Source: Eubacteriales bacterium (GTDB taxonomy: Bacteria; Bacillota; Clostridia; Oscillospirales; CAG-272). Taken from it: a stretch of 64,000 nt of DNA. Both the position numbers and the translations under genes were made by a program. Below the pieces are notes generated by a model. That model did not search any database. It was not told the origin of the DNA and saw nothing but the letters and a program-made list of their open reading frames with translations. Shown here piece after piece: positions 3,630 through 53,588 of the stretch. Position 1 is the stretch's first letter. The number at the start of each line of letters is the position of its first letter. The DNA is taken from positions 8,023 to 72,022 of the forward strand of contig JAZNBB010000011.1 of assembly GCA_045586845.1 (NCBI GenBank). The letters are read 5' to 3'.

Positions 3630-4874
3630 ATGCGTCTGTTCAAAAAGAAAAAGGAACAATTAGAACTGGAAGTATCCGAAAAGCACGTGGGACTCCGCCT
3701 CATCCTCGCCATGGTGTTTCTGGTGATCGGACTGGGTGCCTTGGGCTTTTTTCTGTTCCGGCTTTTGGGGGAAGACCCGGGTTGGCAGACCATTGAGCTC
3801 TCCAACAAGAGCCTTGTTTCGGAACAGGAAATCATTTTTGAGTATGATCTGGGACGCGGTGAGCTTTCAGCAGCAGCTGAAAAGCGAGATCTGCAAAAGG
3901 CGTACACCACTGCTATGGAGCGAGTATATAAGCTCTTTAATGCCCGCAATGGGTATGAAGGGCTGGTAAATATGCACTATATCAGCCTGCATCCAAACCG
4001 CGTGCTGACAGTAGATCCCGACCTTTATGCCGCTTTCGCCTTAGCGGAGGCACATGGAGACCGTTCTGTATATTATGCACCTATCCAGGAACAGTATCGC
4101 AATCTGTTCTCCTGTACTGACGATATTACTGCCGCAACTCTTGATCCATATAAAGATCAAGAAACTCTCGCTTTGGTGACAAAGCTGGCTGAATATTCCA
4201 ATAACCCCTCAGACATCCGCGTGGATCTGCTGGGAAACAATCAGATCCAACTGACTGTATCGGATACGTATCTTGCCTATGCGCAGGAGCACGGCATAGA
4301 ACTTCTCGTAGATTTTTCTTGGCTAACCAACGCTTTTGTATTGGACTGTGTTGCCGATGAGCTGATCTACCAAGGATTTACCCGCGGCTATCTCATTTCT
4401 TACGACGGCTACGCCCGATATCTGGACGCGGATAACAACGCTTACACCGTTCGAATTTTCGACCGTGTGGATACTACCGTATACCCTGCGGCTATCTTCG
4501 AATACAAAAACATCCGATCCTTGGTACAACTCAGGGACTACCCTCTGAATACGTTTGGAGCAGCCGACTACTACGGCTACGCAGACGGTAGCCATGCCTC
4601 GAGATTTTTAGGACAGAACGGTCTGTACCAAACAGCTCTCCATGATCTCACCGCCTATTCCTCCAATAAGGGCTGTGCAGAGACAGCACTGACCTTGTCC
4701 CCCGCCTTTATTGCTAAGGAGTTGGATCAAGCCAAGCTTACAACAGCAGCAGAGCAAGGAATTTTTGCTGTGTGGTGCACGGATCGAGTGATCCGCTTTA
4801 CAGACACGGCACTTGACCTAAGGGAGCTATATGAGCATGACGACATTCGCTATACCGTTATGCCCCGTCCGTAA
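3630..4874 (+). CDS. Membrane-anchored ApbE-like (FAD:protein FMN transferase family) protein, divergent
   Basis: N-terminal TM; 'NMHYISLHPN..LTVDPDLY..F', 'VDFSWLTNAFVLD..ADEL...G' resemble the ApbE core; the ATSG and HIIDP motifs are not evident. Confidence 0.55.
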   Translation: MRLFKKKKEQLELEVSEKHVGLRLILAMVFLVIGLGALGFFLFRLLGEDPGWQTIELSNKSLVSEQEIIFEYDLGRGELSAAAEKRDLQKAYTTAMERVYKLFNARNGYEGLVNMHYISLHPNRVLTVDPDLYAAFALAEAHGDRSVYYAPIQEQYRNLFSCTDDITAATLDPYKDQETLALVTKLAEYSNNPSDIRVDLLGNNQIQLTVSDTYLAYAQEHGIELLVDFSWLTNAFVLDCVADELIYQGFTRGYLISYDGYARYLDADNNAYTVRIFDRVDTTVYPAAIFEYKNIRSLVQLRDYPLNTFGAADYYGYADGSHASRFLGQNGLYQTALHDLTAYSSNKGCAETALTLSPAFIAKELDQAKLTTAAEQGIFAVWCTDRVIRFTDTALDLRELYEHDDIRYTVMPRP

Positions 4875-5521: not shown

Positions 5522-7189
5522 ATGCGTTACGTTGTTGTTGATGCTACAGAATTTGCCTATCCTGATCGGTGGGAGTATGCGTCGGCTGCCAATACCGTGT
5601 TGCTAGACTCGCCGCGCGGCACCTATGCGACCTTTCAGATCCTTGTGGACGGACTCTGCGCCGATCACGTCAAGGAAAACTGGCTACCTGAAGCGATCTA
5701 CAAGGCCCCTGCCCTTTTGGAGCAAGCAAAGATCGGATTCCCGCGCACAAGAGGCGTCAGTATCAGGACCGACCTGCCCTACCCCGTGGAGTGGTACGCG
5801 CTCGTGCCTGTCACGGTTGAGCAAAACTACGGTCTTGCCGAGGCGGACGTCAAGCCGCCGCACTTTCCCGTGCGCATGGGTCCATTCCGCGTGTACGACT
5901 GCCTACGCCCCTTTGATGGCACCTTGGACGTAGGAGTAGGCGACGGCAGAGAGTATGATACTGACATCGGCGGCATTTTCGGTGCTGTCGTCATTCCCGC
6001 AGATGCTACCCCCGGCACATATACCGCCACCGTTGAGATCACGGCAAGCGGGCAGAGCGTTTCCGTGCCGCTTTCGCTGACCGTTTATAAGGCGACTGTA
6101 CCCAAAGAATCCCTGACCATCATTCAGGGATACAACGCGGACTGCGTGGCAAGATACCACGGCGTCAAATATGGCTCGGACGCATATTACGCGCTGGACG
6201 ATGCTTACGTAGGGGCGCTGCGCAGAATGCGACAGAACATGACCTACACGGGCGGCGTCAAGGTGACCGAGGTGGGCAAAAACCAATATGAATTTGATTT
6301 TACTGCCATGGAGCAGGACATGCGCCGCAAGCTGGCACAGGGCATCAAGTGCTTCAACGGACCGTCCGTTGGCTGGCGGCAGAGCTGGCACAGCTCGACC
6401 ATTTTGGTCAATAACACCATTCCCGCCATGAGCTATGAGGGCTACTGTTACCTTGTACAATACCTGCCCGCCCTGCACGATATGCTTGCGCGCAACGGCT
6501 GGCTTGACATATTCATGATGGGCATTGCCGACGAGCCCAATGCCGAAAACTGCACCGAATGGCGTGCACTTGCAGGATTGGTACACAAAATCGTGCCCGA
6601 CATCAAGCTGATCGATGCCATGAGCTACGGCAACATTCACGGTGCGCTTGACATCTGGGTGCCGCTCAACATGGAATACGACAAACATCAAGCCGAGATC
6701 GAAACGCTCCGACAGCAGGGTGATGAGATCTGGCACTACGTTTGCTGTGGACCGCGCAGCGAGTGCTACATCAACCGCTTCCTTGACTATCCTCTGCTCT
6801 CCACGCGATACCTGTTCTGGGGCAACTATCGCCACTCGCTGACAGGATACCTGCATTGGGCTGCCAACTGCTATCAGCCCGGACAGGACCCGTTCCGTCA
6901 GAACTGTCCCGAGCACACCAACACCGACTCCACCATCTTTCTGCCCCCGGGAGATACGCATCTGATCTACCCCGGCGAGCACGGTCCTTGGCTGTCCGCC
7001 CGAGGCGAGGCGCAGCGCATGGGCACCGAGGAATACGAGATGCTCAGTGAGCTTGCAAAGACCGACAAGCAGACCGCCGACGAGATCTGCCAAAAGGTGT
7101 TCCGCTCATTTTGCGACGTAGAATACGACGTGGCAAAATTCCGCGCGGCGAGAGTGCAATTGCTTGAAGCGTTGAGTGGCATTGCATAA
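5522..7189 (+). CDS. DUF4091-domain glycoside hydrolase (GH123-like)
   Basis: 'IADEPN' acidic pair, 'WHYVCCGP', 'NRFLDYP', 'GYLHWAAN', 'PGDTHLIYPG..GP..S.R.E..R.G.EEYE'. Confidence 0.8.
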   Translation: MRYVVVDATEFAYPDRWEYASAANTVLLDSPRGTYATFQILVDGLCADHVKENWLPEAIYKAPALLEQAKIGFPRTRGVSIRTDLPYPVEWYALVPVTVEQNYGLAEADVKPPHFPVRMGPFRVYDCLRPFDGTLDVGVGDGREYDTDIGGIFGAVVIPADATPGTYTATVEITASGQSVSVPLSLTVYKATVPKESLTIIQGYNADCVARYHGVKYGSDAYYALDDAYVGALRRMRQNMTYTGGVKVTEVGKNQYEFDFTAMEQDMRRKLAQGIKCFNGPSVGWRQSWHSSTILVNNTIPAMSYEGYCYLVQYLPALHDMLARNGWLDIFMMGIADEPNAENCTEWRALAGLVHKIVPDIKLIDAMSYGNIHGALDIWVPLNMEYDKHQAEIETLRQQGDEIWHYVCCGPRSECYINRFLDYPLLSTRYLFWGNYRHSLTGYLHWAANCYQPGQDPFRQNCPEHTNTDSTIFLPPGDTHLIYPGEHGPWLSARGEAQRMGTEEYEMLSELAKTDKQTADEICQKVFRSFCDVEYDVAKFRAARVQLLEALSGIA

Positions 7190-7878: not shown

Positions 7879-9603
7879 TTACTCTTTTCTTTTCCACTCC
7901 CGCACAATGCGGATGTCGCCCTTCTGCCAGGTCACATCCAGCATGTCACCCGGACGCACCAGCACGATCTGTTCATTCTCCTCGGTAAACGCCACGCGGT
8001 ATACAGCACCGTCCTCTGCCGTGATATACGCGTAGGTGATACCGTCCAGCGTCAAGAATTGCACATCCGCAACCGTCACGCTTCCCTGCTCTGTTTCAAC
8101 GGGTCCCTGCACGTCCACACCGCTTTGCGACAGCATTTTCAGATATGCTGCCACCGCATCCTGCTGCGTTTCTCCCGTGGCAACCATGGTATACTGACGC
8201 ACGTTGACAAGCGCATACAGCTTGACAAGTCCGTTGTTATCCTTGAGCACCATGATATAGGTGGGCACACTCGAGATATTGACCAAGGACGGGAAAGACG
8301 CCACGTATTCCTTTTCCTGTACCTCACCCTCGGCAGCATGCATAGCAGAATGCTCCTCTGCCCCAATCACGGGATAAAATCTGTACTCACCCGTGCGTGC
8401 GTTGGACAGAATAAAGCCGATATTGGAAGCATCCGAGGTCACCGAGGTAACACCGGTGAAATACCATACGTCATCGTCGAACATCAGATATCCAAAATCA
8501 TCGGTGGTCTGCTTACATCCCTTGTTGCCAATAATGCTGTTGATAAAGCCACCGGAATACAGACCCTGCCAATCGTATTTTTCGCAGGCGAGATCGCCGT
8601 CAAACACCACGTCCACCCATTGCGGTACGTCCTTGACGGCATACAGTGTGCTGCTGCCATCCAGAGGATTGAAAATAATCAACTCTTCTACGTCGTACGC
8701 ACCAAACAGCCCCACGCGAGGGGCAAAGCAGGAAATGCAATAGTAGGGGTTCCCTTCCTCGTCCACCTCAAAGCTGACGTCCTGCATATCAAAGATCTTA
8801 GTAGGATAATCAAAGCGCAGCTTGCGCATCAGATCGTCCTCAAAAAAGCCGCTTTGCGCATAGCGAATGCCTTCCTTGACCTCATAATATTCGGCGGTAT
8901 TGCCCAGCGTATCCACCATAATGTAACCCGGAATGCCGTTTGCACGGTTGCCGATCCACTTGAAAAAGCCATCGTATTCCAAATGCGTGATCTTGATGGG
9001 CTTGCCGTGATAGTTGATCTGCGTATAATCATCACTGACCACGTATTGAGAAACCACGTTTGACAAAGCGCCCAGCTTGCGGTCGCCCAGCATACGCGCA
9101 GAATCGGTATCCATAAGCGCGATGTTGGTGATCTCCTTGGTTTCGGGCATATCCGCTTCAAAATCACGCTCCTCGACGGTGATGATCCCGGCGTAGTTGG
9201 TGGCGTTGAGCACGACCGACGAGATCACGGTGCCGCCTACCAGAACCACGATCGGAACTGCGATCATCACACACATAATAATCGAAAGCGCGCCCTTGCC
9301 AAACAGCCGCTTCCAGGACGGAGCCTTGGCAGTCATGCGCCCACCGCGGAACAAATCGCCAAGGTCAATACTCTTGATGAACAGACGGAATGGCGAAAAA
9401 TCCAAAGCACGCAGTGCAAAAGCAAGACACACCGCACCAAACAGCATAAAAAACCAAAACTGCTCACTCATAGGATTGAGTGGCGGAAGCAGAAAATAAT
9501 AGTACACGCCAATCAGCGCCCCTGCTAACAAAAGTCTCAACAAGGTAAAGATAACAGAGTTGATTTTATCGGGAGCGGGTTGCGTTTGATGTTTCTTAAC
9601 CAT
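7879..9603 (-). CDS. Conserved hypothetical membrane protein with a large extracellular domain
   Basis: Three N-terminal TM segments then a ~430 aa soluble region; GGAGGG SD before ATG 9603. Confidence 0.8.
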   Translation of the reverse strand: MVKKHQTQPAPDKINSVIFTLLRLLLAGALIGVYYYFLLPPLNPMSEQFWFFMLFGAVCLAFALRALDFSPFRLFIKSIDLGDLFRGGRMTAKAPSWKRLFGKGALSIIMCVMIAVPIVVLVGGTVISSVVLNATNYAGIITVEERDFEADMPETKEITNIALMDTDSARMLGDRKLGALSNVVSQYVVSDDYTQINYHGKPIKITHLEYDGFFKWIGNRANGIPGYIMVDTLGNTAEYYEVKEGIRYAQSGFFEDDLMRKLRFDYPTKIFDMQDVSFEVDEEGNPYYCISCFAPRVGLFGAYDVEELIIFNPLDGSSTLYAVKDVPQWVDVVFDGDLACEKYDWQGLYSGGFINSIIGNKGCKQTTDDFGYLMFDDDVWYFTGVTSVTSDASNIGFILSNARTGEYRFYPVIGAEEHSAMHAAEGEVQEKEYVASFPSLVNISSVPTYIMVLKDNNGLVKLYALVNVRQYTMVATGETQQDAVAAYLKMLSQSGVDVQGPVETEQGSVTVADVQFLTLDGITYAYITAEDGAVYRVAFTEENEQIVLVRPGDMLDVTWQKGDIRIVREWKRKE

Positions 9604-17801: not shown

Positions 17802-19777
17802 TGGCAAAGCGCAACCTTGAAAGCCTGCAAAAGCAATATGCAAAATCCTCTCACGGTGGTCCCGGCGCTCCTCGCGGCGGTGGCGGAGGTCGCCACGGCA
17901 GAGGAATGGGTGGCAAACCCAAAAACGCAAAGCACACCATCGCGCGCCTGTTGCGATATCTCAAACCGCATACCGCTGCTATGATCCTTGTGTTGATTTG
18001 TATGCTGTCGCATACCGTGACCGCACTCATTGGCTCGTATCTGCTCTCCCCCGTCATCAACCATTTGGCAGGCGTGGAAATGGGTGAAGACGCAAGCTTC
18101 TTTACCGAGCTTGCAGACCGTGTGATCTCGGCACTGGTGCAGTCCGCTCCCATCACCTTTGTGAGCAATACCTTTGGGCTGAGCGGTCCGTTCCCCTACC
18201 TGTTTGCCGCCCTATGTATTTTCGTGTGCATTTACGGCTGCGGCATTATCGCCTCCTACACCCAGGCACGACTGATGGTGCATATTACTCAATCCTCGCT
18301 GGAGCACATCCGTAACGACCTGTTTGAAAAGATGCAGCGTTTGCCCGTGCGCTACTTTGACGCTAACCCAACGGGCGAGACCATGAGCCGCTTTACCAAC
18401 GACGTAGACAATATCGACCATATGCTGTCCAACACGCTGACTTCGCTGATTTCGGGTGCCATTACACTGCTCGGCACCTTCGTATTCATGCTGACCACCA
18501 ACGTATGGCTGACGCTGATCACGGTAGTGTTTATCCCCATCTTTGGTCTTGGCGGCGCAGCTCTTGCCAAGCGTTCCCGAAAATTCTACAAACAACAACA
18601 GGCGGCGCTGGGCGCAGTCAACGGCTACATTGAGGAGACTGTTTCGGGACAGAAGGTAGTTAAAGTGTTCAATCATGAAAAAGAATGTGAGGAGGAGTTC
18701 GGACTTCTCAACCGCGATCTGCGCGGCAAACAGTACCGTGCCATGTTTTGGGGCGGTATCATGGGTCCCATCATGGGCAACACCAGCCAGATCACTTTTG
18801 CATTTACCCTTGGCGTGGGTGGCATTATGATGCTGCTGACCGGCTTTACCCCCGGTGAGTTGACCGTGTTTGCCAATTACTCCAAGCAATTCTCCTTCCC
18901 CATTACCAACATCTCACAGCAGATGACCACCGTGTTCTCTGCCCTTGCGGGCGCCGAGCGCGTATTTGCTGTCATGGATCAGCCACCCGAACAGCCGGAT
19001 GCCGAGGGAGCGATCAACGAGAACACAGCGGGCTACGAGGGTATCAAGGGCGACGTGATATTCGAGGACGTGACCTTTGGCTATATCCCCGAAAAGACGG
19101 TGCTTAAGAATATCTCGCTGTACGCACATCCGGGTCAGAAGATCGCATTTGTCGGTTCGACGGGTGCGGGAAAGACCACCATCACCAACCTGCTTAATCG
19201 ATTCTACGACATTGAATCGGGCAGCATTACCATCGACGGCATTGACATCAAGCAATACTCGCGCGACTATTTGCGAAAGAATATTGCCATGGTACTGCAG
19301 GACACCCACCTGTTTACAGGTACGGTCATGGAAAACATCCGCTACGGCAGACTGGACGCCACCGACGAGGAGGTCATTGCAGCCGCCAAAACGGCAAGCG
19401 CGCACAGCTTTATCATGCGCCTGGAGCACGGTTACCAGACACGCTTGGAGGGCGACGGCGCAAACCTTTCTCTGGGTCAGCGTCAGCTGCTCAACATTGC
19501 ACGTGCAGCGCTTTCCAAAGCCCCCATTCTGGTGCTGGACGAGGCGACCTCCTCGGTCGATACGCGTACCGAGCGTCACATTGAGCGCGGCATGGATCGC
19601 CTTATGAAAAATCGTACCACTTTTGTCATTGCCCACCGTCTTTCCACGGTGCGCAACTCCAACGCCATTATGGTGCTGGAGCAGGGCGAGATCATCGAGC
19701 GCGGTGACCACGACGACCTGCTCGCCCTCCAGGGAAGATACTACGAGCTCTATACCGGTATGAAGGAGCTTGACTAA
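17801..19777 (+). CDS. ABC exporter, permease plus ATPase (heterodimer subunit 2)
   Basis: GSTGAGKT, LSLGQRQ, LDEATS, IAHRLST. Confidence 0.92.
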   Translation: MAKRNLESLQKQYAKSSHGGPGAPRGGGGGRHGRGMGGKPKNAKHTIARLLRYLKPHTAAMILVLICMLSHTVTALIGSYLLSPVINHLAGVEMGEDASFFTELADRVISALVQSAPITFVSNTFGLSGPFPYLFAALCIFVCIYGCGIIASYTQARLMVHITQSSLEHIRNDLFEKMQRLPVRYFDANPTGETMSRFTNDVDNIDHMLSNTLTSLISGAITLLGTFVFMLTTNVWLTLITVVFIPIFGLGGAALAKRSRKFYKQQQAALGAVNGYIEETVSGQKVVKVFNHEKECEEEFGLLNRDLRGKQYRAMFWGGIMGPIMGNTSQITFAFTLGVGGIMMLLTGFTPGELTVFANYSKQFSFPITNISQQMTTVFSALAGAERVFAVMDQPPEQPDAEGAINENTAGYEGIKGDVIFEDVTFGYIPEKTVLKNISLYAHPGQKIAFVGSTGAGKTTITNLLNRFYDIESGSITIDGIDIKQYSRDYLRKNIAMVLQDTHLFTGTVMENIRYGRLDATDEEVIAAAKTASAHSFIMRLEHGYQTRLEGDGANLSLGQRQLLNIARAALSKAPILVLDEATSSVDTRTERHIERGMDRLMKNRTTFVIAHRLSTVRNSNAIMVLEQGEIIERGDHDDLLALQGRYYELYTGMKELD

Positions 19778-20878: not shown

Positions 20879-21577
20879 TCAAAGCCCCGCAAACTTTTCG
20901 CACGCCACCTTATACTGTGCACGGGAAATGGGAACCAGGTCACCGTTACGCATAGTATATTCACGATTGTTGATGCGCGTGGTGTGACGCAGGTTGACCG
21001 AATAAGAGCGATGGCAGCGAAAAAAGATATCGGCGGGGAGCTTTTCGCAAAACGCCTCAAAGCTGCCCATAAACACATATTGCTGACCGTCACGGCCATA
21101 TATTACGATATCGTGCTTTTGGCTCTCCAGATACAGAATATCATCGTACTCCATCATGACCTGCCCTTTTTTGCGGTCGTTGATCACCAGTCCCGGCTGC
21201 TTTTCCATCTTTTCCAAGCACATCTGCACCGCACGGCGCAGCTTGATGGGATCGACCGGCTTTGTCAGATATGTCAGCGGGTACACCTCATAAGCATCCA
21301 GCGCAAACTCGGAACTTGAAGTCATAAATACAATATTAACACGGCTTCCGGCGCGGCGCAGCTCACTTGCAAATTCAAGACCTGTGCGCTTATCCATCAC
21401 GATATCCAAAAGCAACAGCGAATAATCACATTTGCGCATGGCTGCCTGCAGCTCATCGGTAGAGCTGAAGCAATCGGTGCGGTGGGTAATACCCTTTTCG
21501 TCCAGCATCTTATCCAAAAGCTCCTTAGCCTTTGCGGAATACACTGCCTCGTCGTCGCAAATTGCGGTATAAAACAT
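20879..21577 (-). CDS. LytTR family response regulator
   Basis: REC domain 'ICDDE..LLDI..G', C-terminal 'FFRCHRSYSVNL'. Confidence 0.92.
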   Translation of the reverse strand: MFYTAICDDEAVYSAKAKELLDKMLDEKGITHRTDCFSSTDELQAAMRKCDYSLLLLDIVMDKRTGLEFASELRRAGSRVNIVFMTSSSEFALDAYEVYPLTYLTKPVDPIKLRRAVQMCLEKMEKQPGLVINDRKKGQVMMEYDDILYLESQKHDIVIYGRDGQQYVFMGSFEAFCEKLPADIFFRCHRSYSVNLRHTTRINNREYTMRNGDLVPISRAQYKVACEKFAGL

Positions 21578-29058: not shown

Positions 29059-29838
29059 ATGAAAATCGTCGTCAAGATCGGCACTTCCACGCTGGCACAC
29101 GCCACCGGCAGACTCAATATCAAGAGAATCGAGCAGCTTTGCAAGGTACTCTCCGACCTCAAAAACGCAGGACACGAGATCATTCTCGTTTCTTCCGGTG
29201 CAATCGGCATGGGCGTGGGTAAGTTGGGGCTTCCCGCGCGTCCCCGCGACACTGCAGGCAAGCAGGCAGCGGCTGCCGTTGGACAATGCGAGCTGATGTA
29301 TACATATGACAAGCTGTTCTCCGAATATAACCACACAGTAGCACAGATACTGCTTACAGCGGATGACCTGCGCCACGCTGACCGCCACCAAAACTTTGAG
29401 AATACCATGAGCCGTTTGCTGGAGCTCTCGGTGCTGCCCATCATCAACGAAAATGATACGGTTGCCACCGAGGAGATTGAGATCGGGGACAACGATACCT
29501 TGGCTGCCATCGTGGCAGAGAGCGTGCGTGCCGATCTTTTGATCCTGCTCTCCGACATTGACGGGCTTTACACCGCAGACCCGCACAAGCATGAGAACGC
29601 ACAACTGATCTCCGATGTGTACGAGCTGGACGTGCGCATCCTTGCGCTTGGCGGAAGCGCAGGCTCGGCTCTGGGCACAGGCGGCATGGCAACCAAGCTG
29701 CGTGCCGCGCAGATTGCGACCGGCGCCGGCTGCGACATGGTGATTGCCAACGGTGCTGACCCCGATCTGCTTTACCGCATTGCAAGCGGCGAGGCAGTCG
29801 GCACTAAATTTCATGCAAACAAGGGGGAAAGTGCATGA
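29059..29838 (+). CDS. proB: Glutamate 5-kinase (no PUA domain)
   Basis: 'VVKIGTS', 'VSSGAI', 'INENDTV', 'GDNDTL', 'GTGGMATK'. Confidence 0.95.
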   Translation: MKIVVKIGTSTLAHATGRLNIKRIEQLCKVLSDLKNAGHEIILVSSGAIGMGVGKLGLPARPRDTAGKQAAAAVGQCELMYTYDKLFSEYNHTVAQILLTADDLRHADRHQNFENTMSRLLELSVLPIINENDTVATEEIEIGDNDTLAAIVAESVRADLLILLSDIDGLYTADPHKHENAQLISDVYELDVRILALGGSAGSALGTGGMATKLRAAQIATGAGCDMVIANGADPDLLYRIASGEAVGTKFHANKGESA

Positions 29839-31094
29839 GAAGCACGCAGGATATTTTAATTGCAGCCAAGCGGGCGGGCAATATCATAAAAAGCTATACC
29901 GCCGAGCAGCTTGACGCGGCACTCGCCGCCATGGCTGCGACACTGGTTGCCGACACCGATGCCATTTTACAGGCAAACACCGCCGATCTGGAAGCTGCTC
30001 GCGGACATATTTCGGACGTCATGCTGGACAGATTGCGCCTTGATGACAAGCGCGTACACGGCATGGCACAGGGCATTTTGGACGTTGTTCGTCTGCCCTC
30101 CCCTCTGGGACACGTGCTGGCAGAGTTCCAACGCCCCAACGGCATGACCGTACGCAAGATCTCCTCTGCTATGGGCGTCATTGCCATCATTTACGAAAGC
30201 CGCCCCAACGTGACCTCGGACGCAGCTGCACTCGCCATCAAAGCGGGCAGCGTTTGCGTATTACGCCCCGGTCGTGACGCAGCCAAGTCGGCTGCCGCTA
30301 TCGTTGCCGCTTTGCGTAAAGGGCTTACCGCCGCAGGTCTTTGCCCCGATCTCGTCAATTTGGTGGAGGACACCTCACGTCAGAGCGCAACCGACCTGAT
30401 GAAGGCAAACGGCTTTGTGGATATGCTGATCCCACGCGGAGGCGCGGGACTGATCCGCTCCTGCATCGAAAACGCCACCGTGCCCTGTATTCAGACGGGT
30501 ACGGGCATCTGTCACATTTACGTAGACGCAAGTGCCGACCTTGACATGGCGCTGAACATTTTAGATAATGCAAAAACCAGCCGCCCGTCGGTCTGCAATG
30601 CTTGCGAGGTATGCCTTGTACATAAGGATATTGCCGACAAGTTCCTGCCTTTGGTAAAAGTGCGTCTGATCGACGCAAGACGCGCGGCGGGCAAGATCCC
30701 GGTCGAGTTGCGCGGTGACACACGCACTTGCGCTGTCATTGACGCAATACCTGCAGGCAAAAACGATTTTGACACCGAATTTTTGGACTATATTTTAGCC
30801 GTGGGCATTGTAGACGGCGTGAACGAAGCTGTTTCGCATATTGGCGCGCACTCCACGGGACACAGCGAGGCGATCCTCGCAACCGATCAGACCGCCATTG
30901 ACACATTTGTGCGCGGTGTGGATTCCTCCTCGGTGTACGTCAATGTATCCACCCGTTTTACCGATGGCGGCGAGTTCGGCTTTGGCTGCGAAATGGGCAT
31001 TTCCACGCAGAAATTGCACGCGCGCGGTCCCATGGGACTTTGCGAACTGACCACGTATAAATACGTCATTACAGGCAACGGGCAGACCAGATGA
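29835..31094 (+). CDS. proA: Glutamate-5-semialdehyde dehydrogenase
   Basis: 'IYESRPNVT', 'IPRGG', 'RPSVCNA', 'STRFTDGGEFG', 'STQKLHARGP'. Confidence 0.95.
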   Translation: MRSTQDILIAAKRAGNIIKSYTAEQLDAALAAMAATLVADTDAILQANTADLEAARGHISDVMLDRLRLDDKRVHGMAQGILDVVRLPSPLGHVLAEFQRPNGMTVRKISSAMGVIAIIYESRPNVTSDAAALAIKAGSVCVLRPGRDAAKSAAAIVAALRKGLTAAGLCPDLVNLVEDTSRQSATDLMKANGFVDMLIPRGGAGLIRSCIENATVPCIQTGTGICHIYVDASADLDMALNILDNAKTSRPSVCNACEVCLVHKDIADKFLPLVKVRLIDARRAAGKIPVELRGDTRTCAVIDAIPAGKNDFDTEFLDYILAVGIVDGVNEAVSHIGAHSTGHSEAILATDQTAIDTFVRGVDSSSVYVNVSTRFTDGGEFGFGCEMGISTQKLHARGPMGLCELTTYKYVITGNGQTR

Positions 31095-31096
31095 GA

Positions 31097-31193
31097 GTGA
31101 TATATTTCGCCATGGGCGAAATGTGATATTTTTGCTATCGCAAAAGTGATATTCGCGCTGCGCGCGAGTGATATGTTCCGCCCAAGGCGGAAC
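31097..31193 (+). repeat. Array of 4 units: GTGATAT linker plus variable perfect hairpin
   Basis: GTGATAT at 31097, 31123, 31146, 31168, each followed by a different 6-8 bp perfect stem with a 3-4 nt loop. Confidence 0.9.
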
Positions 31194-31281
31194 GTTGCGG
31201 TAGGAATTTGCCACATGGCAAATTCCAATCCGATTGTATTCTTTCTGAAATCACCACGTGAACCCAATAAGAGGAGCTTTT

Positions 31282-32079
31282 ATGAAAAGAATTGGATTTA
31301 TCGGTGCGGGCAACATGGGCGGTGCACTGGCGCTTGCCGCATCCAAGACCGATTGCGCGCTATACGTCACCGACCTTGATACAGCGAAAGCATCTGTGCT
31401 TTGCGAGCGCACGGGCGCGACAATGTCCGACAGCGCAACCATTTGCGCAACCTGCGATCTCATTTACCTTGGCGTCAAGCCGCAGATGCTTGCCGAGGTT
31501 GCCGCAGAGCTCGCCCCTGCGCTGCAGCAAAGAAACACCCCTTACTGCCTGGTCAGTATGTGCGCAGGCATCACAATCTCGCGCCTTGGCGAGCTGTTTC
31601 CCGATACCGCTGCCATTCGCATCATGCCCAACACCCCCGTAGCCGCGGGGCAAGGAATGATCCTGTACTGCTATAACGACCTGACCACAGCCGAACAGAT
31701 CGACACCTTTTTGTATGCCATGTCACACGCGGGCAAGCTTGACCTTTTGGACGAATCCCTGTTCGACGCGGGTACGTCGGTCTCGGGGTGCGGTCCCGCC
31801 TTTGCCTATCTGTTTGCCGACGCGCTTGCCAAAGGGGGAGCTGATTGCGGGCTTTCCTACGAGCAAGCGTGCGCATATGCCGCACAAATGTTGCTGGGTG
31901 CCGCACTGATGCTGCAACAGGGCGGCAGGAGCCCCGATCAATTGCGCGAGGCGGTCTGCTCCAAGGGCGGTTCGACCATTGAGGGCGTCAAGGTCATGTG
32001 GGAGCAGAACCTGGAAGGCACGGTACGCGAAGCGGTCAAGGCAGCATACAAGCGGAATATTGAACTCGGAAAACAATAA
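31282..32079 (+). CDS. proC: Pyrroline-5-carboxylate reductase
   Basis: 'IGFIGAGNMG', 'VKPQ', 'RIMPNTP', 'SGCGPA', 'VCSKGGSTI'. Confidence 0.95.
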   Translation: MKRIGFIGAGNMGGALALAASKTDCALYVTDLDTAKASVLCERTGATMSDSATICATCDLIYLGVKPQMLAEVAAELAPALQQRNTPYCLVSMCAGITISRLGELFPDTAAIRIMPNTPVAAGQGMILYCYNDLTTAEQIDTFLYAMSHAGKLDLLDESLFDAGTSVSGCGPAFAYLFADALAKGGADCGLSYEQACAYAAQMLLGAALMLQQGGRSPDQLREAVCSKGGSTIEGVKVMWEQNLEGTVREAVKAAYKRNIELGKQ

Positions 32080-32094
32080 AATCAGGAGGTTCAT

Positions 32095-33744
32095 ATGATC
32101 AAAACAGCACTTATCTCCAGCCTTGAGAAATGCTTTTCCGATCAGCAGATCGAAAGTTTTGCACCGCTGAAAGCCCTTTCGGTGCTTAAAAACGAACGCT
32201 TCTCGGTGCAGCTGCTCTACAGAAGCGAGCCGGATCACGCAGGACGCGCCATCGTGCGCGTAGACGGTGCGCTTGCCCCCTATGCAAGCGTGAGAAGCGT
32301 CAAGAATATCCCCGTTGACATTGCGATCTTCCCGGGTGCCGATACAAGCAACTATCTGCGCACAGATCCCGGACTCTATCCCGACCTGCTGCAGCCCCTG
32401 CACTATAGCGGAGCGGTCTCGATCATGAAGGATCAGACGCAGAGCGCGTGGATCGAATTTGACCTTGACGGCAAGGCGGCTGCCGGCACTTACCCTATGG
32501 CGGTGACGCTGGTGGACGGGCTTGGCAACGAGGTGGCAAAGGAGTGCTTTGAGGTCAAGGTCATCAACGCCACGCTGCCTGCGCAGCAAATGCGCGTGAC
32601 CCAATGGTTTCATGCGGATTGCCTTGCCAACTACTATAACGTGCCCGCCTGGAGCGAGGAGCACTGGAGAATTGTGGAGAATTTTGCACGCACCGCGCGC
32701 AGAAACGGCATCAATCTGCTGCTGACACCCATCTTTACACCCGCACTTGACACGGTCATCGGCGGTGAGCGCACCACGGTACAGCTGATCGACGTTTACA
32801 AAAACGGGGACGCGTACACGTTCGGTTTTGAAAAGTTGGATCGTTGGATCGATATGTGCGACCGCGTGGGCATTGAGTATTTTGAGATCGCGCACCTGTT
32901 TACCCAGTGGGGCGCAGAGCACGCGCCCAAGGTCATGGCGAGAGTGGACGGTGTATACAAAAAGATCTTTGGCTGGGAGACTGCTGCAACGGGCGAGGAG
33001 TATTCGACCTTTTTACGCACCTTCCTTGCATCTTTTCTTGACCATATGAAGGCAAGAGGCGACGACGGTCGTTGCTATTTCCATATTTCGGACGAGCCAA
33101 ACGAGATGCAGCTGGAGTCCTATAAGGCGGCAAAAGCGATCGTCGCGGATCTGCTGGAGGGCTACCCCATTATGGACGCGCTTTCCAATTTTGAATTCTT
33201 CAAGCAAGGCATCGTGCCCCTGCCCATTCCCTCCAATGATCATATCAAGCCCTTTATCGAGGCAGGCGTGCCCGGCTTGTGGACATATTATTGCTGCGGG
33301 CAGCTTTCACACGTTTCCAACCGCATGATGGCAATGCCGCTGTGGCGCACGCGCTCAATCGGCTATCAGTTTTATAAGTATGATATCGCGGGCTTTTTGC
33401 AATGGGGATATAACTTCTACAACACCTGCGGCTCGGTTGACCCGATCAATCCCTTTGTGGACGCTTGCGGCGAATATTGGGTGCCCGCGGGTGACACCTA
33501 CTCGGTCTACCCCGCACAGAACGGCGAGGCAATGGAATCGATCCGTATTTTGTCCTTCCACGAGGCATTGCAGGACGTGCGCGCTATGAAGCTTGCCGAA
33601 ACATATTACGGCAAGGACGCGGTAGTAGCTGCTTTGGAAGATATCCTCGGCGAGATCAGATTTGACAAATGCGCCACCGACGCAAAAACCATTCTCGCTA
33701 TGCGAAAAAAGATCAACGACATGATCGCGGCAGCGGTCAACTAA
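32095..33744 (+). CDS. DUF4091-domain glycoside hydrolase (GH123-like), second paralog
   Basis: 'TQWFHADC', 'HLFTQWGA', 'ISDEPN', 'WTYYCC', 'GFLQWGYNFY', 'GD..VYP...SIR...LQD'. Confidence 0.85.
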   Translation: MIKTALISSLEKCFSDQQIESFAPLKALSVLKNERFSVQLLYRSEPDHAGRAIVRVDGALAPYASVRSVKNIPVDIAIFPGADTSNYLRTDPGLYPDLLQPLHYSGAVSIMKDQTQSAWIEFDLDGKAAAGTYPMAVTLVDGLGNEVAKECFEVKVINATLPAQQMRVTQWFHADCLANYYNVPAWSEEHWRIVENFARTARRNGINLLLTPIFTPALDTVIGGERTTVQLIDVYKNGDAYTFGFEKLDRWIDMCDRVGIEYFEIAHLFTQWGAEHAPKVMARVDGVYKKIFGWETAATGEEYSTFLRTFLASFLDHMKARGDDGRCYFHISDEPNEMQLESYKAAKAIVADLLEGYPIMDALSNFEFFKQGIVPLPIPSNDHIKPFIEAGVPGLWTYYCCGQLSHVSNRMMAMPLWRTRSIGYQFYKYDIAGFLQWGYNFYNTCGSVDPINPFVDACGEYWVPAGDTYSVYPAQNGEAMESIRILSFHEALQDVRAMKLAETYYGKDAVVAALEDILGEIRFDKCATDAKTILAMRKKINDMIAAAVN

Positions 33745-51349: not shown

Positions 51350-51414
51350 AGACAATCATCCTTTCATGAATGAATTTCAATTCAATTGATTGCAGTGCGG
51401 AGAAAATCCACCTC

Positions 51415-51507
51415 ATTACTCGCGCAAAGCGCGAATATCACTGCGGCTCTGCCGCAATATCACTTGCGCGCAGCGCAAATATCACTCGTGCGAAGCACGA
51501 ATATCTC
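51415..51507 (-). repeat. Array of 4 units with exact 22-nt period: GTGATAT linker plus variable 6-bp hairpin
   Basis: Plus strand ATATCAC at 51435, 51457, 51479 and ATATCTC at 51501, separating TCGCGC/GCGCGA, TGCGGC/GCCGCA, TTGCGC/GCGCAA, TCGTGC/GCACGA. Confidence 0.92.
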
Positions 51508-51521
51508 TGCAATGAAGCTGT

Positions 51522-53588
51522 TTACAGCTTCATTGCCACATCCCACGCACCCCAAATGACAGTGCGCAGATTGCCCACAGCCTTGGCATCACCGATCACG
51601 TGTACGCCCTTGGTGGTCAGCGGTGCGGGATTGTAACCGACAGACAAAACGACCGAATCCGCATCGATCTGCTCAGTCGCGCCGTCCTTGCGCTTGATTA
51701 CGACGCCCTGCTCGTTGATCTCAGACACACCGGTTTCCAGGAACACGGGGACTTCGTTTGCCTTAAAGTAGTCGCGCAGATAGCTTGTGTTTGCCAGACA
51801 AATGCCCTTGGTGGTGATCAGATCGTCCTGCATTTCCACAATGATCGGCATTTTGCCCTGCAGGCACAGCTCATATGCGATCTCGCAACCGGTCAGGCCG
51901 CCACCGATTACGACCACCTTGTTGCCAACCGTTTTGTTTCCAAGCAGGAAGTCAACAGCCTCGATCGAACGCTCTACACCGGGAATCGGGATGCGCTTAG
52001 CCACGGCACCGGTTGCAACGATGACCTCATCGGCATCCAAAGACTTGACATCCTTGACTTCGGTGTTCATCTTAACCTCAATAGGATGCTTGGCGATCTC
52101 GCGGATATACCACTTGATCAAATCGCGGTCCTTTTCCTTGAAGGAAGGCGCAGCGGCTGCAATAAATACGCCGCCCAGTTTATCGCTCTTTTCGTACAAG
52201 GTGACCTTGTGGCCGCGCTTCGCGCACACGATAGCTGCTTCCATACCGCCAATGCCGCCGCCGATGACAGCGATCTTCTTTTGCTTCTTGGCGGGAACAA
52301 TATGGTATTTTTTAGACTGCATGGTCTCCGGATTGATCGCACAGCGGGAAAGTCCCATGGTGTCGGTCAGATCCTGCGTGTTGGCATGACCCTTGGATGA
52401 GGAGAAATTAAAGCAAGCGTTATGGCAACAGATGCAGGGTTTGATATCCTCCAGTCTGTCCTCGATCAGCTTGGTGATCCACGCGGGATCAGCCAAGAAC
52501 TGGCGAGCTACGCCCATCGCGTCGATCTTGCCCTCGGCTATTGCCGCAGCACCCACGTCGGGTTCCATTCTGCCCGCGCAGACCACGGGAATGTCCACAA
52601 ATTTCTTGATGTGCGCAACGTCCTCAAGGTTGCAGTTTTGAGGCATATACATCGGCGGATGCGCCCAATACCAGGAGTCGTAGGTGCCATTATCTGCGTT
52701 GAGCATATCGTAGCCAGCATCCTGCAGGAACTTTGCCGCCTTTTCGGACTCCTCCATGTTTCTGCCGACCTCTTCGTAGTCCTCTTCGGGCATAGCGCCC
52801 TCGCAAAAGCCCTTCATCTTGGATTCTACCGAGTAACGCAAAGATACGGGATAATCATTACCGCAGGCTTCCTTGATCGCCTTGACGATTTCTGCTGCAA
52901 AACGATAGCGGTTTTCAAAGCTTCCGCCGTAATCGTCGGTACGCTTATTAAAGAATTCGATTGCAAACTGGTCCAGGAGATAGCCCTCGTGTACTGCGTG
53001 TACCTCTACACCGTCTACACCCGCATCGTGGCAAAGCTTTGCGGTCTTGGCAAAAGCTTCGATGATCTCGTGGATCTGCTCTACCGTCATCTCGGGACAA
53101 ATGATGTCATGCGCCCATCTCGACGGCTGGGGGCTGGGACTTGCAAGCTCATGCGAGGTGTCGATCACGGGCTTGATCACGGCACGGGTGAACTTGTTTT
53201 TGTGTAAGGGTGCTATCAGCTCGGTGATCGCCCAGGAACGACCCATGCCTGCGGTCAGCTGAATAAACACCTTGGCACCTGTCTTGTGGATCTCATCCAT
53301 AAATTCCTTAAGATCCTCAAACATCTTGGGGTTCTGGTACAGCCACTTGCCCCAGAAGGTATCACGAATAGGCGCAATACCGGGGATGATCAGGCCGACG
53401 TTGTTGTTTGCGCGCTCCAAAAACAGCTTGGCAGCTTCCTTATCGAAATGGCAGCCGGTCAGTTCAAACCAACCAAACAGCGACGTACCACCCATGGGGC
53501 ACATAACGATGCGGTTTTTGATCTCGACGTTGCCAATCTTCCAAGGCGTAAACAACGCTTGGTACTTGGGATCGGTTTGATTGTTCAT
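51522..53588 (-). CDS. NADH:flavin oxidoreductase / 2-enoate reductase-like (OYE barrel, 4Fe-4S, FAD domains)
   Basis: '[11 protein letters not shown]', '[13 protein letters not shown]', '[16 protein letters not shown]', 'CICCHNAC', two GxGxxG motifs; AGGAG SD before ATG 53588. Confidence 0.9.

What the first reader, a model, noticed from the sequence alone, without database searches (positions are those of the whole stretch)
31097..31193. Fixed-linker, variable-hairpin array between proA and proC
Seen: GTGATAT-[ATTTCGCC atg GGCGAAAT]-GTGATAT-[TTTTGC tatc GCAAAA]-GTGATAT-[TCGCGC tgc GCGCGA]-GTGATAT-[GTTCCGCC caa GGCGGAAC], starting 2 nt after the proA stop. Every spacer is a different perfect inverted repeat while the linker is invariant, the reverse of a CRISPR array where the repeat carries the hairpin. 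Simple tandem duplication would not keep pairing while changing stem sequence. Inference: selection on ssDNA/RNA structure, as a multivalent protein-binding or processing site, or as the product of an unknown spreading mechanism. I do not recognise it as a named family.
Basis: partly seen in the sequence, partly recalled or inferred. Interest (0 to 1): 0.78.

Follow-up and report, generated by a model that had tools for sequence, protein, structure and literature searches.

The report
Gut-1 hairpin-array repeat after proA
The array is real, but it is one copy of an already catalogued many-copy repeat of gut Clostridia (the "Gut-1" motif) that has landed between two proline genes in some species of this genus and not in others, and what the repeat does is still unknown.

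Summary
In detail: four GTGATAT words alternate with four perfect hairpins from 2 nt after the proA stop. A fifth hairpin and a short tail follow.

It is not an unnamed family. Rfam Gut-1 (RF01706) matches it at 44.2 bits (cut-off 50). A second copy in the window scores 53.6, and the genome holds at least 34 matches. This scan has reported Gut-1 arrays at least eight times on other DNA.

This copy belongs to a defined ~140-160-nt subfamily ("family A"), seen at 21 independent loci in the genus. The stems are conserved or compensated and the loops are free.

The proA-proC site is filled in 9 and empty in 6 of 15 genomes with the junction. Filled and empty are interleaved on the tree of the flanks.

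Copies lie in either orientation to their neighbours (11 to 10), so this is not a proline regulator.

Broken stem pairs are A:C on the GTGATAT strand 29 times and G:T 4 times. The strand that stays paired is therefore the complement of Rfam's strand.

Across 45 other genera, Gut-1 matches track small IVP (Avd-like) genes (odds ratio 37.6) and not Y1 transposases (2.4).

Most likely it is a gene-less, structure-selected copy of an IVP-linked repeat. Its function is inferred, not shown.

The parts
29835..31094 (+). proA (glutamate-5-semialdehyde dehydrogenase), the upstream neighbour. Its stop codon is at 31092-31094.
   Evidence: ORF. NCBIfam NF001221, 526.5 bits.
31095..31272 (+). The stretch that is absent from the empty proA-proC sites of six same-genus genomes. 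It is the inserted or deleted block between the stop codon and the GGAG of proC.
   Evidence: In the empty sites the spacer is 10-11 nt (stop, GGAG..TA, ATG). BLAST pieces end at query position 596 and resume at 773-782.
31097..31174 (+). Four GTGATAT linkers (31097, 31123, 31146, 31168) with hairpins 1-3 between them.
   Evidence: Rfam Gut-1 match at 31095-31179, 44.2 bits.
31175..31193 (+). Hairpin 4 (8 bp, loop CAA).
   Evidence: Covariation in helix 4.
31194..31226 (+). Variant fifth linker (GTTGCGGTAG) and hairpin 5 (AT-rich stem with a GCC core). Both are conserved in sequence in all copies of the subfamily.
31227..31254 (+). Tail of the element. It is T-rich with ATTGTA at 31233-31238. 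On the - strand this reads TACAAT, preceded by TTCACG at an 18-nt spacing.
   Evidence: The tail is conserved at many independent loci. Promoter-like match, but it is not general across loci.
31282..32079 (+). proC (pyrroline-5-carboxylate reductase), the downstream neighbour. Its GGAG is at 31273-31276.
   Evidence: NCBIfam TIGR00112, 226.1 bits.
51430..51509 (-). A second, different Gut-1 array in the window: GAGATAT plus three GTGATAT words, with four hairpins. It is preceded by a hairpin whose loop holds the stop codon of the upstream gene.
   Evidence: Rfam 53.6 bits, over the cut-off of 50. Sequence.

Best explanation
The array is a gene-less copy of one subfamily ('family A', about 140-160 nt) of the Gut-1 hairpin-array repeats of gut Oscillospiraceae-like Clostridia. 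It consists of an optional long hairpin, four short hairpins joined by the heptamer GTGA(A/T)AT, a fifth hairpin and a short tail.

Shown here:
- It is a dispersed, many-copy element.
- At the proA-proC junction it has been gained or lost several times within the genus.
- Its stems are kept paired by compensatory change while its loops drift.
- Its orientation is independent of the neighbouring genes.
- The strand on which pairing is preserved, through G:T(U) wobble, is the strand that reads ATATCAC. That is the complement of Rfam's strand.
- Across genomes the repeat is numerous only where genes of the small four-helix-bundle IVP family (PF05635, relatives of the Avd protein of diversity-generating retroelements) are found. 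Full mirrored arrays sit directly in front of those genes.

Inferred:
- The hairpins act as rigid spacers that hold four or five copies of the heptamer single-stranded, as a multivalent site for an oligomeric reader.
- Gene-less copies such as this one persist or spread through that system, much as REP sequences depend on their transposase.
- For the proline operon the copy is a passenger. It splits a tightly coupled proA-proC junction and has no dedicated regulatory role.
For: Family membership:
- Rfam RF01706 scores 44.2 bits here and 53.6 bits at the second copy in the window.
- The own genome has 34 matches at E<=1, 6 of them over the cut-off. Only 150 of 189 candidates were scored.
- 45 of 61 related genomes have a match, including 15 of 15 others of the genus.

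Subfamily:
- The same five stems in the same order occur in 47 parsed copies from 21 independent loci.

Structure selection:
- 97.1% of cells are paired.
- 20 of 43 pairs changed on both sides, against 7.4 +/- 1.7 in shuffles (0 of 500 reach it; slid controls 1-4).

Gain and loss at the proA-proC junction:
- The junction was recovered in 14 of the 15 other genomes of the genus (G003 gave only a contig-end piece of proC), so 15 genomes count with the window's own.
- 9 sites are filled: G000, G012, G015 and G002 carry GTGATAT; G009, G007, G001 and G004 carry GTGAAAT; G005 carries a shortened form.
- 6 sites are empty: G006, G008, G010, G011, G013 and G014.
- On the 13-row tree of the flanks at least 4 changes of state are needed.
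- The AU test rejects the filled genomes as one clade (p 1.5e-56; the group was named after I had seen the tree).

Orientation:
- 11 loci are sense and 10 antisense to the flanking genes. The calls come from a codon model that got the strand right in 171 of 194 held-out ORFs.

Strand of pairing:
- In family A stems, the non-Watson-Crick pairs on the GTGATAT strand are A:C 31 (29 distinct events), G:T 4 and other 8, out of 1672 pairs (binomial p 1e-5). The bias holds in both orientation classes.
- IVP-linked arrays follow the same rule in both halves: A:C 6 to G:T 2 in the left half, G:T 4 to A:C 0 in the right half.
- In 58 units of the own genome, 15 of 22 triloops read C-TNC-G, which is C-GNA-G on the complement. 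None read C-GNA-G on the GTGATAT strand.

IVP link:
- Presence or absence over 45 genomes of 45 other genera gives both 26, Gut-1 only 3, IVP only 3, neither 13. The odds ratio is 37.6 (Fisher p 3e-6) and Spearman of the counts is 0.83.
- Arrays lie directly upstream of IVP genes in 16 of 20 IVP loci from 20 genomes, by inspection.
- They also do so in 63 of 69 loci of the own IVP lineage and at the single IVP gene of this genome.
- The IVP protein matches PDB 2RLD, a five-chain entry, at E 4e-30. PF05635 is likened to Avd in PMC10053308 (passages read).
Against: - No binding, transcript or mobility was observed.
- The presence link with IVP is partly built in, because IVP-linked arrays are themselves Gut-1 matches. 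Co-inheritance alone would make words and IVP lineages co-vary.
- The only IVP gene in this 75.6%-complete assembly uses GTGATGT/ACATCAC words, not GTGATAT. No IVP gene lies in the window.
- Some features favour the GTGATAT strand instead. An A-U and an invariant U.G pair can extend every hairpin on that strand (43-44 of 44 sequences). Hairpin 5 plus the T-rich tail looks like a weak terminator on that strand.
- In the other large subfamily (mirrored 'type B', 28 copies) the few wobble pairs do not follow the rule. The left half has G:T 4 to A:C 1, which goes against it. The right half has 3 to 1, which goes with it.
- Loops of family A itself are only partly of the GNA/GNNA kind: 2 of 5 in this copy.
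- The filled/empty pattern could reflect recombination between species rather than insertion.
Confidence: 0.55

Rival explanations
1. It is what Rfam calls it: a small non-coding RNA (Gut-1 RNA) transcribed from the GUGAUAU strand, acting in trans or as a stable 3' product.
For: - Weinberg et al. rated Gut-1 'Y' (certainly an RNA) and not cis-regulatory (Table 1).
- The + strand folds far better than shuffles: -70.4 kcal/mol, z -6.67.
- Hairpin 5 with the T-rich tail resembles a terminator on this strand.
- Some arrays in the genome end in clear terminators on this strand: C79, C42 and C85.
- An invariant U.G can extend each hairpin on this strand.
Against: - In family A, broken stem pairs on this strand are A:C 29 to G:T 4. 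This is the reverse of what a folded RNA of this strand should tolerate.
- Triloops closed by C-G read UNC on this strand, which is not a known stable RNA loop. This point rests on recalled knowledge.
- No promoter is conserved upstream. In this copy the array starts 2 nt after a stop codon inside an operon.
- Orientation to the neighbours is 11 to 10.
Confidence: 0.15
2. It is a cis-acting mRNA element of the proBA-proC operon. It would act as a stabilising 3' structure, partial terminator or processing site that uncouples proC from proBA, as REP sequences do in some E. coli operons.
For: - It sits between two co-directional genes of one pathway, in sense orientation.
- It has five stable hairpins.
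- Several copies start at or within a few nt of a stop codon.
Against: - Six of 15 species of the genus do without it at this site, with a 10-11-nt coupled junction.
- The same element sits at 20 other unrelated loci, and at 10 of the 21 loci in all it is antisense to the genes.
- The strand statistics point to the other strand.
Confidence: 0.15
3. It is a REP/BIME-type element mobilised by a REP-associated tyrosine (Y1/HUH) transposase acting on hairpins in single-stranded DNA.
For: - It is a many-copy intergenic palindromic unit with a short conserved word beside each hairpin.
- Selection on one DNA strand would fit an ssDNA enzyme.
- The genome has one Y1_Tnp gene.
Against: - 16 of 45 Gut-1-positive genomes gave no Y1_Tnp match. 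They include genomes with 27-51 Gut-1 matches: G005, G033, G039 and G048.
- The odds ratio outside the genus is 2.4 (p 0.22).
- No GTGATAT cluster was listed near the own Y1 gene, which lies at C91:21418-21750. The only C91 cluster is at position 1309.
- The REP head GTAG is not present (recalled feature).
Confidence: 0.05
4. It is functionless selfish or relic DNA. On this reading the hairpins are kept only because unpaired copies are lost or because arms are homogenised, with no reader protein.
For: - The element is optional at this site.
- No effect on the host was shown.
- No RNA evidence was obtained.
Against: - Orthologous copies are retained across species whose flanking genes are only 76-82% identical, with compensated stems and near-invariant heptamers while the loops are saturated. 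Neutral decay would not give this pattern.
Confidence: 0.1

Closest known systems
Gut-1 RNA motif (Rfam RF01706; Weinberg et al. 2010, Genome Biol 11:R31, PMC2864571)
   Same: Tandem short hairpins with free stem sequence are joined by a fixed heptamer (GUGAAAU in the model). The whole model is matched at positions 1-77. Orthologous copies at this site carry GTGAAAT exactly. The source organisms are gut Clostridia.
   Different: This copy scores under the gathering cut-off (44.2 against 50). It has five hairpins plus a tail, not three. It belongs to a sequence-defined subfamily. My strand statistics favour the complement of the modelled strand. I read the paper's main text only in passages. 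Its Additional files 1-3, which hold the discussion and flanking genes of Gut-1, were closed.
REP/BIME elements and their RAYT transposases (Enterobacteria, Pseudomonas)
   Same: These are also many-copy intergenic palindromic units with a short conserved word, often in inverted pairs and often just after stop codons. Their number depends on a linked protein gene.
   Different: REP palindromes are conserved in sequence and carry a GTAG head (recalled). Here the word is a heptamer between hairpins, and the linked gene is a 119-aa four-helix-bundle protein, not an HUH enzyme. The Y1 association was tested here and is weak.
IVP / 'four helix bundle protein' family (PF05635, TIGR02436; PDB 2RLD, 2GSC) and DGR Avd
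   Same: The full mirrored arrays of this repeat family sit in front of such genes. IVP genes are known as scattered small inserts in 23S rRNA intervening sequences and in cas loci (PMC3936711, passage read).
   Different: No IVP gene accompanies this copy. I found no paper linking IVP genes with heptamer or hairpin arrays. Avd works with a reverse transcriptase. I did not search this genome for one.
DNA mini-hairpins d(GCGNAGC)/d(GCGNNAGC) at ssDNA priming sites and phage N4 promoters (review PMC13037366)
   Same: On the ATATCAC strand most loops of this genome's arrays read C-GNA-G or C-GNNA-G. The review states that such hairpins are exceptionally stable in DNA, while TTC or TTTT loops are not (passages read).
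   Different: Those are single hairpins in phage or plasmid origins, not arrays with a repeated linker. Only 2 of the 5 loops of this copy are of that kind.
CRISPR arrays
   Same: There is only a formal alternation of constant and variable segments.
   Different: The constant part here is 7 nt and unstructured. The 'spacers' are palindromes conserved between copies. Arrays in the own genome never exceeded 4 linkers in a chain. No cas link was sought or seen.

Membership tests
Rfam Gut-1 (RF01706) | Covariance-model score at or above the gathering cut-off (50 bits) | tested here: not met
   This copy scores 44.2 bits, E 2e-5 for the whole window. Sister copies pass: 53.6 bits in the window and up to 64.1 in the genome.
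Rfam Gut-1 (RF01706) | Three or more tandem hairpins joined by the GUGAAAU-type heptamer, with the full model matched | tested here: met
   Model positions 1-77 are aligned. The linker here is GUGAUAU, and it is GUGAAAU in the orthologous copies of G009, G007, G001 and G004.
Rfam Gut-1 (RF01706) | Stems supported by covariation | tested here: met
   20 of 43 pairs have changes on both sides, and 0 of 500 shuffles reach this.
Rfam Gut-1 (RF01706) | Expressed as an RNA of the modelled strand | tested here: inconclusive
   No RNA holder was listed and 0 reads were laid in 4 runs, so this was no test. Indirect statistics go against this strand and partly for it.
REP/BIME with RAYT | Association with a Y1 (HUH) REP-associated transposase | tested here: not met
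   Outside the genus the odds ratio is 2.4 (p 0.22). 16 of 45 Gut-1-positive genomes have no Y1_Tnp match.
REP/BIME with RAYT | Many-copy intergenic palindromic units | tested here: met
   32 of 34 merged arrays of the own genome lie between crude ORF calls. There are dozens per genome in the genus.
MITE | Terminal inverted repeats and target-site duplication | tested here: not met
   Filled and empty proA-proC sites were compared. The two ends, GTGATAT... and ...ATTGTA, are not inverted repeats of each other. No consistent duplication is seen: a GA or AA dinucleotide flanks only the long form, and it is part of the ribosome-binding site.
CRISPR | Repeats of 23-50 nt with unique, non-palindromic spacers that differ between arrays | tested here: not met
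   The repeat is 7 nt. The spacers are palindromes shared by 47 copies.
IVP-linked mirrored array cassette (informal, from this scan) | A mirrored array (word, then its reverse complement) directly upstream of a PF05635 gene | tested here: not met
   This copy is a single half-array with no IVP gene nearby. The full form exists once in this genome, at C17.

The most novel reading that the evidence does not exclude
Small IVP (Avd-like, pentamer-forming) proteins and arrays of four to five repeated heptamers form a previously undescribed kind of tiny cassette in gut Clostridia. In the Gut-1 class the heptamers are held apart by DNA-type mini-hairpins (cGNAg/cGNNAg) that fold on one defined strand, with mirror symmetry around the centre of the full element. 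An outward-moving process from that centre, whether divergent transcription or priming on single-stranded DNA, would then meet the same structure on both sides. Gene-less half-arrays such as the proA-proC copy would be non-autonomous offspring read by the same protein ring. If so, Rfam's Gut-1 is modelled on the wrong strand and is not primarily an sRNA.
Probability: 0.2. Interest if true: 0.75.

Novelty: new member of a known kind. Interest (0 to 1): 0.4.

Why it matters
As a finding it is mostly ordinary. It is a further copy of a motif that Rfam has held since 2010 and that this scan has met repeatedly.

Gut-1 has nevertheless had no function, no genomic context and no cultivated host in print, as far as my searches reach. 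The results here make the question testable:
- There is a clean filled/empty site in sister species.
- There is a sequence-defined subfamily with 21 loci.
- There is a reproducible strand asymmetry that contradicts the catalogued strand.
- There is a strong genome-level link to IVP genes, a widespread family of unknown function related to the Avd protein of diversity-generating retroelements.

A simple binding assay of IVP against arrays could give both orphans a function.

Tried and rejected
**RNA evidence.** No RNA holder was listed for window 29800-32100. Four RNA runs of the same species label were laid and gave 0 reads, so there was no test of expression.

**Phage or plasmid carriage of family A.** blastn of window 31095-31255 found no match in 50,697 phage records or in 72,556 plasmid records at E<=1e-3.

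**A conserved promoter on the - strand.** TTCACG-18-TACAAT is present here. Similar hexamers stand in the two other long-form orthologues, by my reading. Across the 21 loci, a TACAAT 7-9 nt from hairpin 5 occurs at only 6, with variable -35 quality. I rejected it as a general feature.

**Genome-wide switch of the linker.** I considered that each genome might use either GTGATAT or GTGAAAT throughout. This is rejected: both kinds of pair coexist in the same genomes (G000 54 to 3, G009 92 to 61, G004 21 to 27; the reversed-pattern control gave 0-2). Mixed arrays also exist.

**Orientation from open frames.** Using open frames in 300-nt flanks was too noisy. I replaced it with a codon model.

**First automatic wobble count.** It was inflated by a spurious extension of hairpin 4 into the linkers. 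I replaced it with a structured parse. L062 could not be parsed, and L057, which has an extra duplicated unit, was dropped.

**CRISPR-like, MITE and RAYT readings.** See the membership tests.

**Literature.** Searches for 'Gut-1' with 'RNA motif' (2 papers), for IVP family names (4 papers held the terms, 3 listed) and for the heptamers (5 irrelevant papers) found nothing on function or on an IVP link. The supplements of PMC2864571 were not available and may hold flanking-gene data.

Full report
**1. The observation**

One search shows the array as described. The proA stop is at 31092-31094, followed by GA. Then come four GTGATAT words (31097, 31123, 31146, 31168), each followed by a different perfect hairpin of 8+3, 6+4, 6+3 and 8+3 (stem bp + loop nt).

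A variant linker (GTTGCGGTAG, 31194-31203), a fifth hairpin (31203-31226) and a T-rich tail with ATTGTA follow. proC starts at 31282, behind a GGAG at 31273. NCBIfam confirms proB, proA and proC.

Chance does not produce this:
- The window has 19 GTGATAT against 6.5 +/- 2.7 in shuffles, and 0 of 100 shuffles reach 19.
- None of 200 Markov simulations had a chain of three or more.
- In the genome, 64 of 542 GTGATAT sites are followed at once by a perfect hairpin, against 231 of 20000 random positions.
- GTGATAT is the only recurrent 7-mer between adjacent perfect hairpins: 29 of 96 such pairs, next best 2.

**2. It has a name**

Rfam's Gut-1 model (RF01706) aligns end to end with 31095-31179 at 44.2 bits. 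The gathering score is 50, and E is 2e-5 for the whole window. A second, different array at 51430-51509 on the - strand scores 53.6 bits.

The model's consensus is the same architecture with GUGAAAU as the word. Weinberg et al. 2010 (PMC2864571, passages read) list Gut-1 as a likely non-coding RNA known only from human-gut metagenomes. The details are in supplements I could not open.

The only other paper holding the name uses it as a folding benchmark.

The scan's own notes show at least eight earlier reports of the same motif on other DNA. Their lead about IVP genes is tested in sections 6 and 7.

**3. A many-copy repeat with subfamilies**

- The window's genome (2.16 Mb, 109 contigs, 75.6% complete) has 34 Rfam matches at E<=1, 6 of them over the cut-off, with 150 of 189 candidates scored.
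- It has 31 clusters of exact GTGATAT, with spacing peaking at 22 nt.
- Chains never exceed four words.
- Of 34 merged arrays, 32 lie between crude ORF calls.
- Among 60 relatives, 44 have matches, including all 15 of the genus with 11-58 matches each from only 63 scored candidates per genome.
- By record titles, close relatives of a linked gene are uncultured Oscillospiraceae, Clostridia or Eubacteriales genomes from ruminant and other animal guts.

The proA-proC array is one of a sequence-defined subfamily that I call family A. The same five stems in the same order, the variant fifth linker and the tail occur twice more in this genome (C58, C85). They occur many times in every genome of the genus at 71-92% identity.

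I fetched 40 copies. Together with the own copies and the orthologues, 47 copies could be parsed. L062 was unparsed and L057 was dropped. They come from 21 independent loci, and many loci are shared between species.

Most copies start with a further, longer hairpin whose outer stem reads GCAATG...CATTGC. This copy lacks it.

**4. Structure is selected; the site is polymorphic**

On an alignment of 44 copies the five helices are 97.1% paired. Twenty of 43 pairs show changes on both sides, against 7.4 +/- 1.7 in shuffles (0 of 500). Slid controls give 1-4. The loops differ almost freely between copies, and the heptamers are near-invariant except position 5 (A or T).

At the proA-proC junction, counting the 15 genomes of the genus in which the junction was recovered:

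| State | Genomes | Word |
|---|---|---|
| Filled | G000, G012, G015, G002 | GTGATAT |
| Filled | G009, G007, G001, G004 | GTGAAAT |
| Filled, shortened | G005 | GTGAAAT |
| Empty | G006, G008, G010, G011, G013, G014 | none |

- G003 yielded only a contig-end piece of proC.
- The empty sites have a 10-11-nt spacer: stop, GGAG..TA, ATG.
- On a tree of proA+proC (13 rows), filled and empty genomes are interleaved. G012 (filled) is sister to G006 (empty) at 100/100. At least 4 changes of state are needed.
- Holding the filled genomes together costs 475 log-likelihood units (AU p 1.5e-56). The group was named after I had seen the tree.
- Stems 2 and 3 differ between orthologues by compensated changes.
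- I saw no terminal inverted repeats and no consistent target duplication.
- Whether the pattern reflects repeated insertion, precise loss or exchange between species cannot be told from these data.

**5. Not a proline-specific device, and which strand folds**

A codon model called the right strand in 171 of 194 held-out ORFs. With it, the element is sense to its neighbours at 11 loci and antisense at 10.

The stems are almost perfect, and their rare defects are one-sided. On the GTGATAT strand, 1672 stem pairs include 31 A:C (29 distinct events), 4 G:T and 8 others (binomial p 1e-5).
- The bias holds in both orientation classes, so it is not a by-product of transcription or replication direction.
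- Both kinds of transition contribute, by my reading of the list.
- An A:C on this strand is a G:T (G:U) wobble on the other. The strand that keeps pairing is therefore the one that reads ATATCAC, the complement of Rfam's strand.

Loops agree with this for the genome's arrays in general.
- In 58 units the closing pair is C-G and the loops read T..C. That gives C-GNA-G or C-GNNA-G on the complement.
- 15 of 22 triloops are of this kind, and none read C-GNA-G on the GTGATAT strand.
- A 2026 review (PMC13037366, abstract and passages) describes GCGNAGC and GCGNNAGC as exceptionally stable DNA mini-hairpins. It places them at single-strand priming sites and phage N4 promoters, and says that TTC or TTTT loops are ordinary.
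- PMC3201870 (abstract in the listing) stresses the closing pair.

Evidence pointing the other way:
- Every hairpin can be extended on the GTGATAT strand by an A-U and an invariant U.G from the flanking words.
- Hairpin 5 with its tail resembles a weak terminator on that strand.
- Only 2 of this copy's 5 loops are of the GNA/GNNA kind.
- In the other large subfamily (type B, 28 copies) the few wobble pairs are G:T 4 to A:C 1 in the half where the rule predicts the reverse.

Both strands fold far better than shuffles. No RNA data could be obtained.

**6. The link to IVP genes**

The genome has one PF05635 gene (C17, 119 aa; TIGR02436 'four helix bundle protein'). Directly in front of it, after a tRNA-Cys gene and a terminator, lies a mirrored array. 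It has four words of the GTGATGT type with hairpins, then four ACATCAC with hairpins, then a TTTACA-17-TATAAT promoter.

In 69 loci of the same IVP lineage from other species that have enough upstream sequence, 63 show two or more such words in at least one half. In most of the 24 loci I read, a tRNA gene and a terminator lie upstream.

In 20 IVP loci from 20 genomes, 16 have word-plus-hairpin arrays. The words differ by lineage (GTGATGT, ATGATGT, ATGAAGC, ATGAAAT, GTGATAT, GTTATGA, GCTAAAT). Four have plain tandem short repeats without hairpins.

Over the same 61 genomes:

| Comparison with Gut-1 | Set | Both | Gut-1 only | Other only | Neither | Odds ratio | Fisher p |
|---|---|---|---|---|---|---|---|
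| IVP | all 61 | 42 | 3 | 3 | 13 | 60.7 | 4e-8 |
| IVP | 45 other genera | 26 | 3 | 3 | 13 | 37.6 | 3e-6 |
| Y1 transposase | 45 other genera | 15 | 14 | 5 | 11 | 2.4 | 0.22 |

- Spearman correlation of Gut-1 and IVP counts outside the genus is 0.83.
- Four array-rich genomes have no Y1 match.
- Kin are not independent, and the IVP-linked arrays are themselves Gut-1 matches, so part of this link is built in. Even so, genomes without IVP have at most 1-2 weak matches, while IVP-bearing ones have up to 51.

In the IVP-linked arrays the wobble rule of section 5 holds in both halves: A:C 6 to G:T 2 on the left, and G:T 4 to A:C 0 on the right, read on the IVP-sense strand. The two halves therefore fold on opposite physical strands, with mirror symmetry about the centre.

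The IVP protein matches PDB 2RLD, a five-chain entry, at E 4e-30. PF05635 has been likened to the Avd protein of diversity-generating retroelements (PMC10053308). IVP genes are known as scattered inserts in cas loci and 23S rRNA genes (PMC3936711).

I found no paper that connects IVP genes with repeat arrays.

**7. Reading**

Shown:
- This is a copy of a known, many-copy, structure-selected repeat, optional at this site.
- Its orientation is independent of the neighbouring genes.
- It has a strand asymmetry opposite to the catalogued strand.
- At genome level it is tied to IVP genes and not to Y1 transposases.

Inferred:
- The hairpins space and expose four to five heptamers for an oligomeric reader, most likely IVP.
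- Gene-less copies depend on that system.
- For the proline operon the copy is a passenger.

Open:
- Whether the active form is RNA or single-stranded DNA.
- How copies move.

**8. Verdict**

Interest is moderate (0.4). The function of Gut-1 is still unknown, and the present data make it testable. However, the motif is catalogued and the scan has seen it many times.

Noticed in passing
window 51430-51509 (-), with flanks 51380-51560: A second Gut-1 array of a different subfamily, 53.6 bits. The hairpin before its first word is a perfect 13-bp palindrome. Its 5' arm is the last codons of the upstream gene, and its loop holds that gene's stop codon.
   Followed up: partly
own genome: C26:~4560-4790, C72:~19140-19330, C89:~21300-21490 and ~9180-9335, C92:~6500-6690, C41, C36, C2, C28: Nine copies of a mirrored ~215-nt element ('type B'). 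It has four GTGATAT units, a conserved centre, then ATATCAC and ATAGAAC units, and ends in a long hairpin. In relatives the same hairpins lie in front of an IVP gene (G014:C20). Four copies share a further ~150-nt conserved upstream block of unknown nature.
   Followed up: partly
L090 (G056:C24), L073 (G059:C4), L071 (G017:C40), L080 (G054:C21), just upstream of the IVP start: IVP genes in genomes or lineages without hairpin arrays are preceded by plain tandem short repeats, for example TAGTTGC-like heptamers about nine times in G056. A repeated word in front of IVP genes may be the general rule, with hairpins as an addition.
   Followed up: partly
L112-L137 and own C17:900-1250: The IVP cassette (terminator-like hairpin, mirrored array, promoter, gene) sits directly downstream of tRNA genes of different kinds in different species. 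This suggests insertion at tRNA 3' ends.
   Followed up: no
window 31233-31262 (-): A sigma-70-like match TTCACG-18-TACAAT faces into the array, antisense to proA. The two other long-form orthologues (G012, G015) have comparable hexamers at the same place, by my reading.
   Followed up: partly
alignment A1, columns 8-9/31-32 and equivalents: The last two bases of each heptamer (AT) can pair with the first two of the next (GT). This gives an A-U and an invariant U.G that would leave only three unpaired bases (GAW) between hairpins on the GTGATAT strand.
   Followed up: no
window 32095-33744 (+): A 549-aa ORF directly after proC has no NCBIfam match at E<=1e-5.
   Followed up: no
L015 (G005:C66), proA-proC spacer: A shortened orthologue keeps hairpin 1 and hairpin 5, but hairpins 2-4 are missing. 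The join is at a word, as if by recombination between linkers.
   Followed up: no
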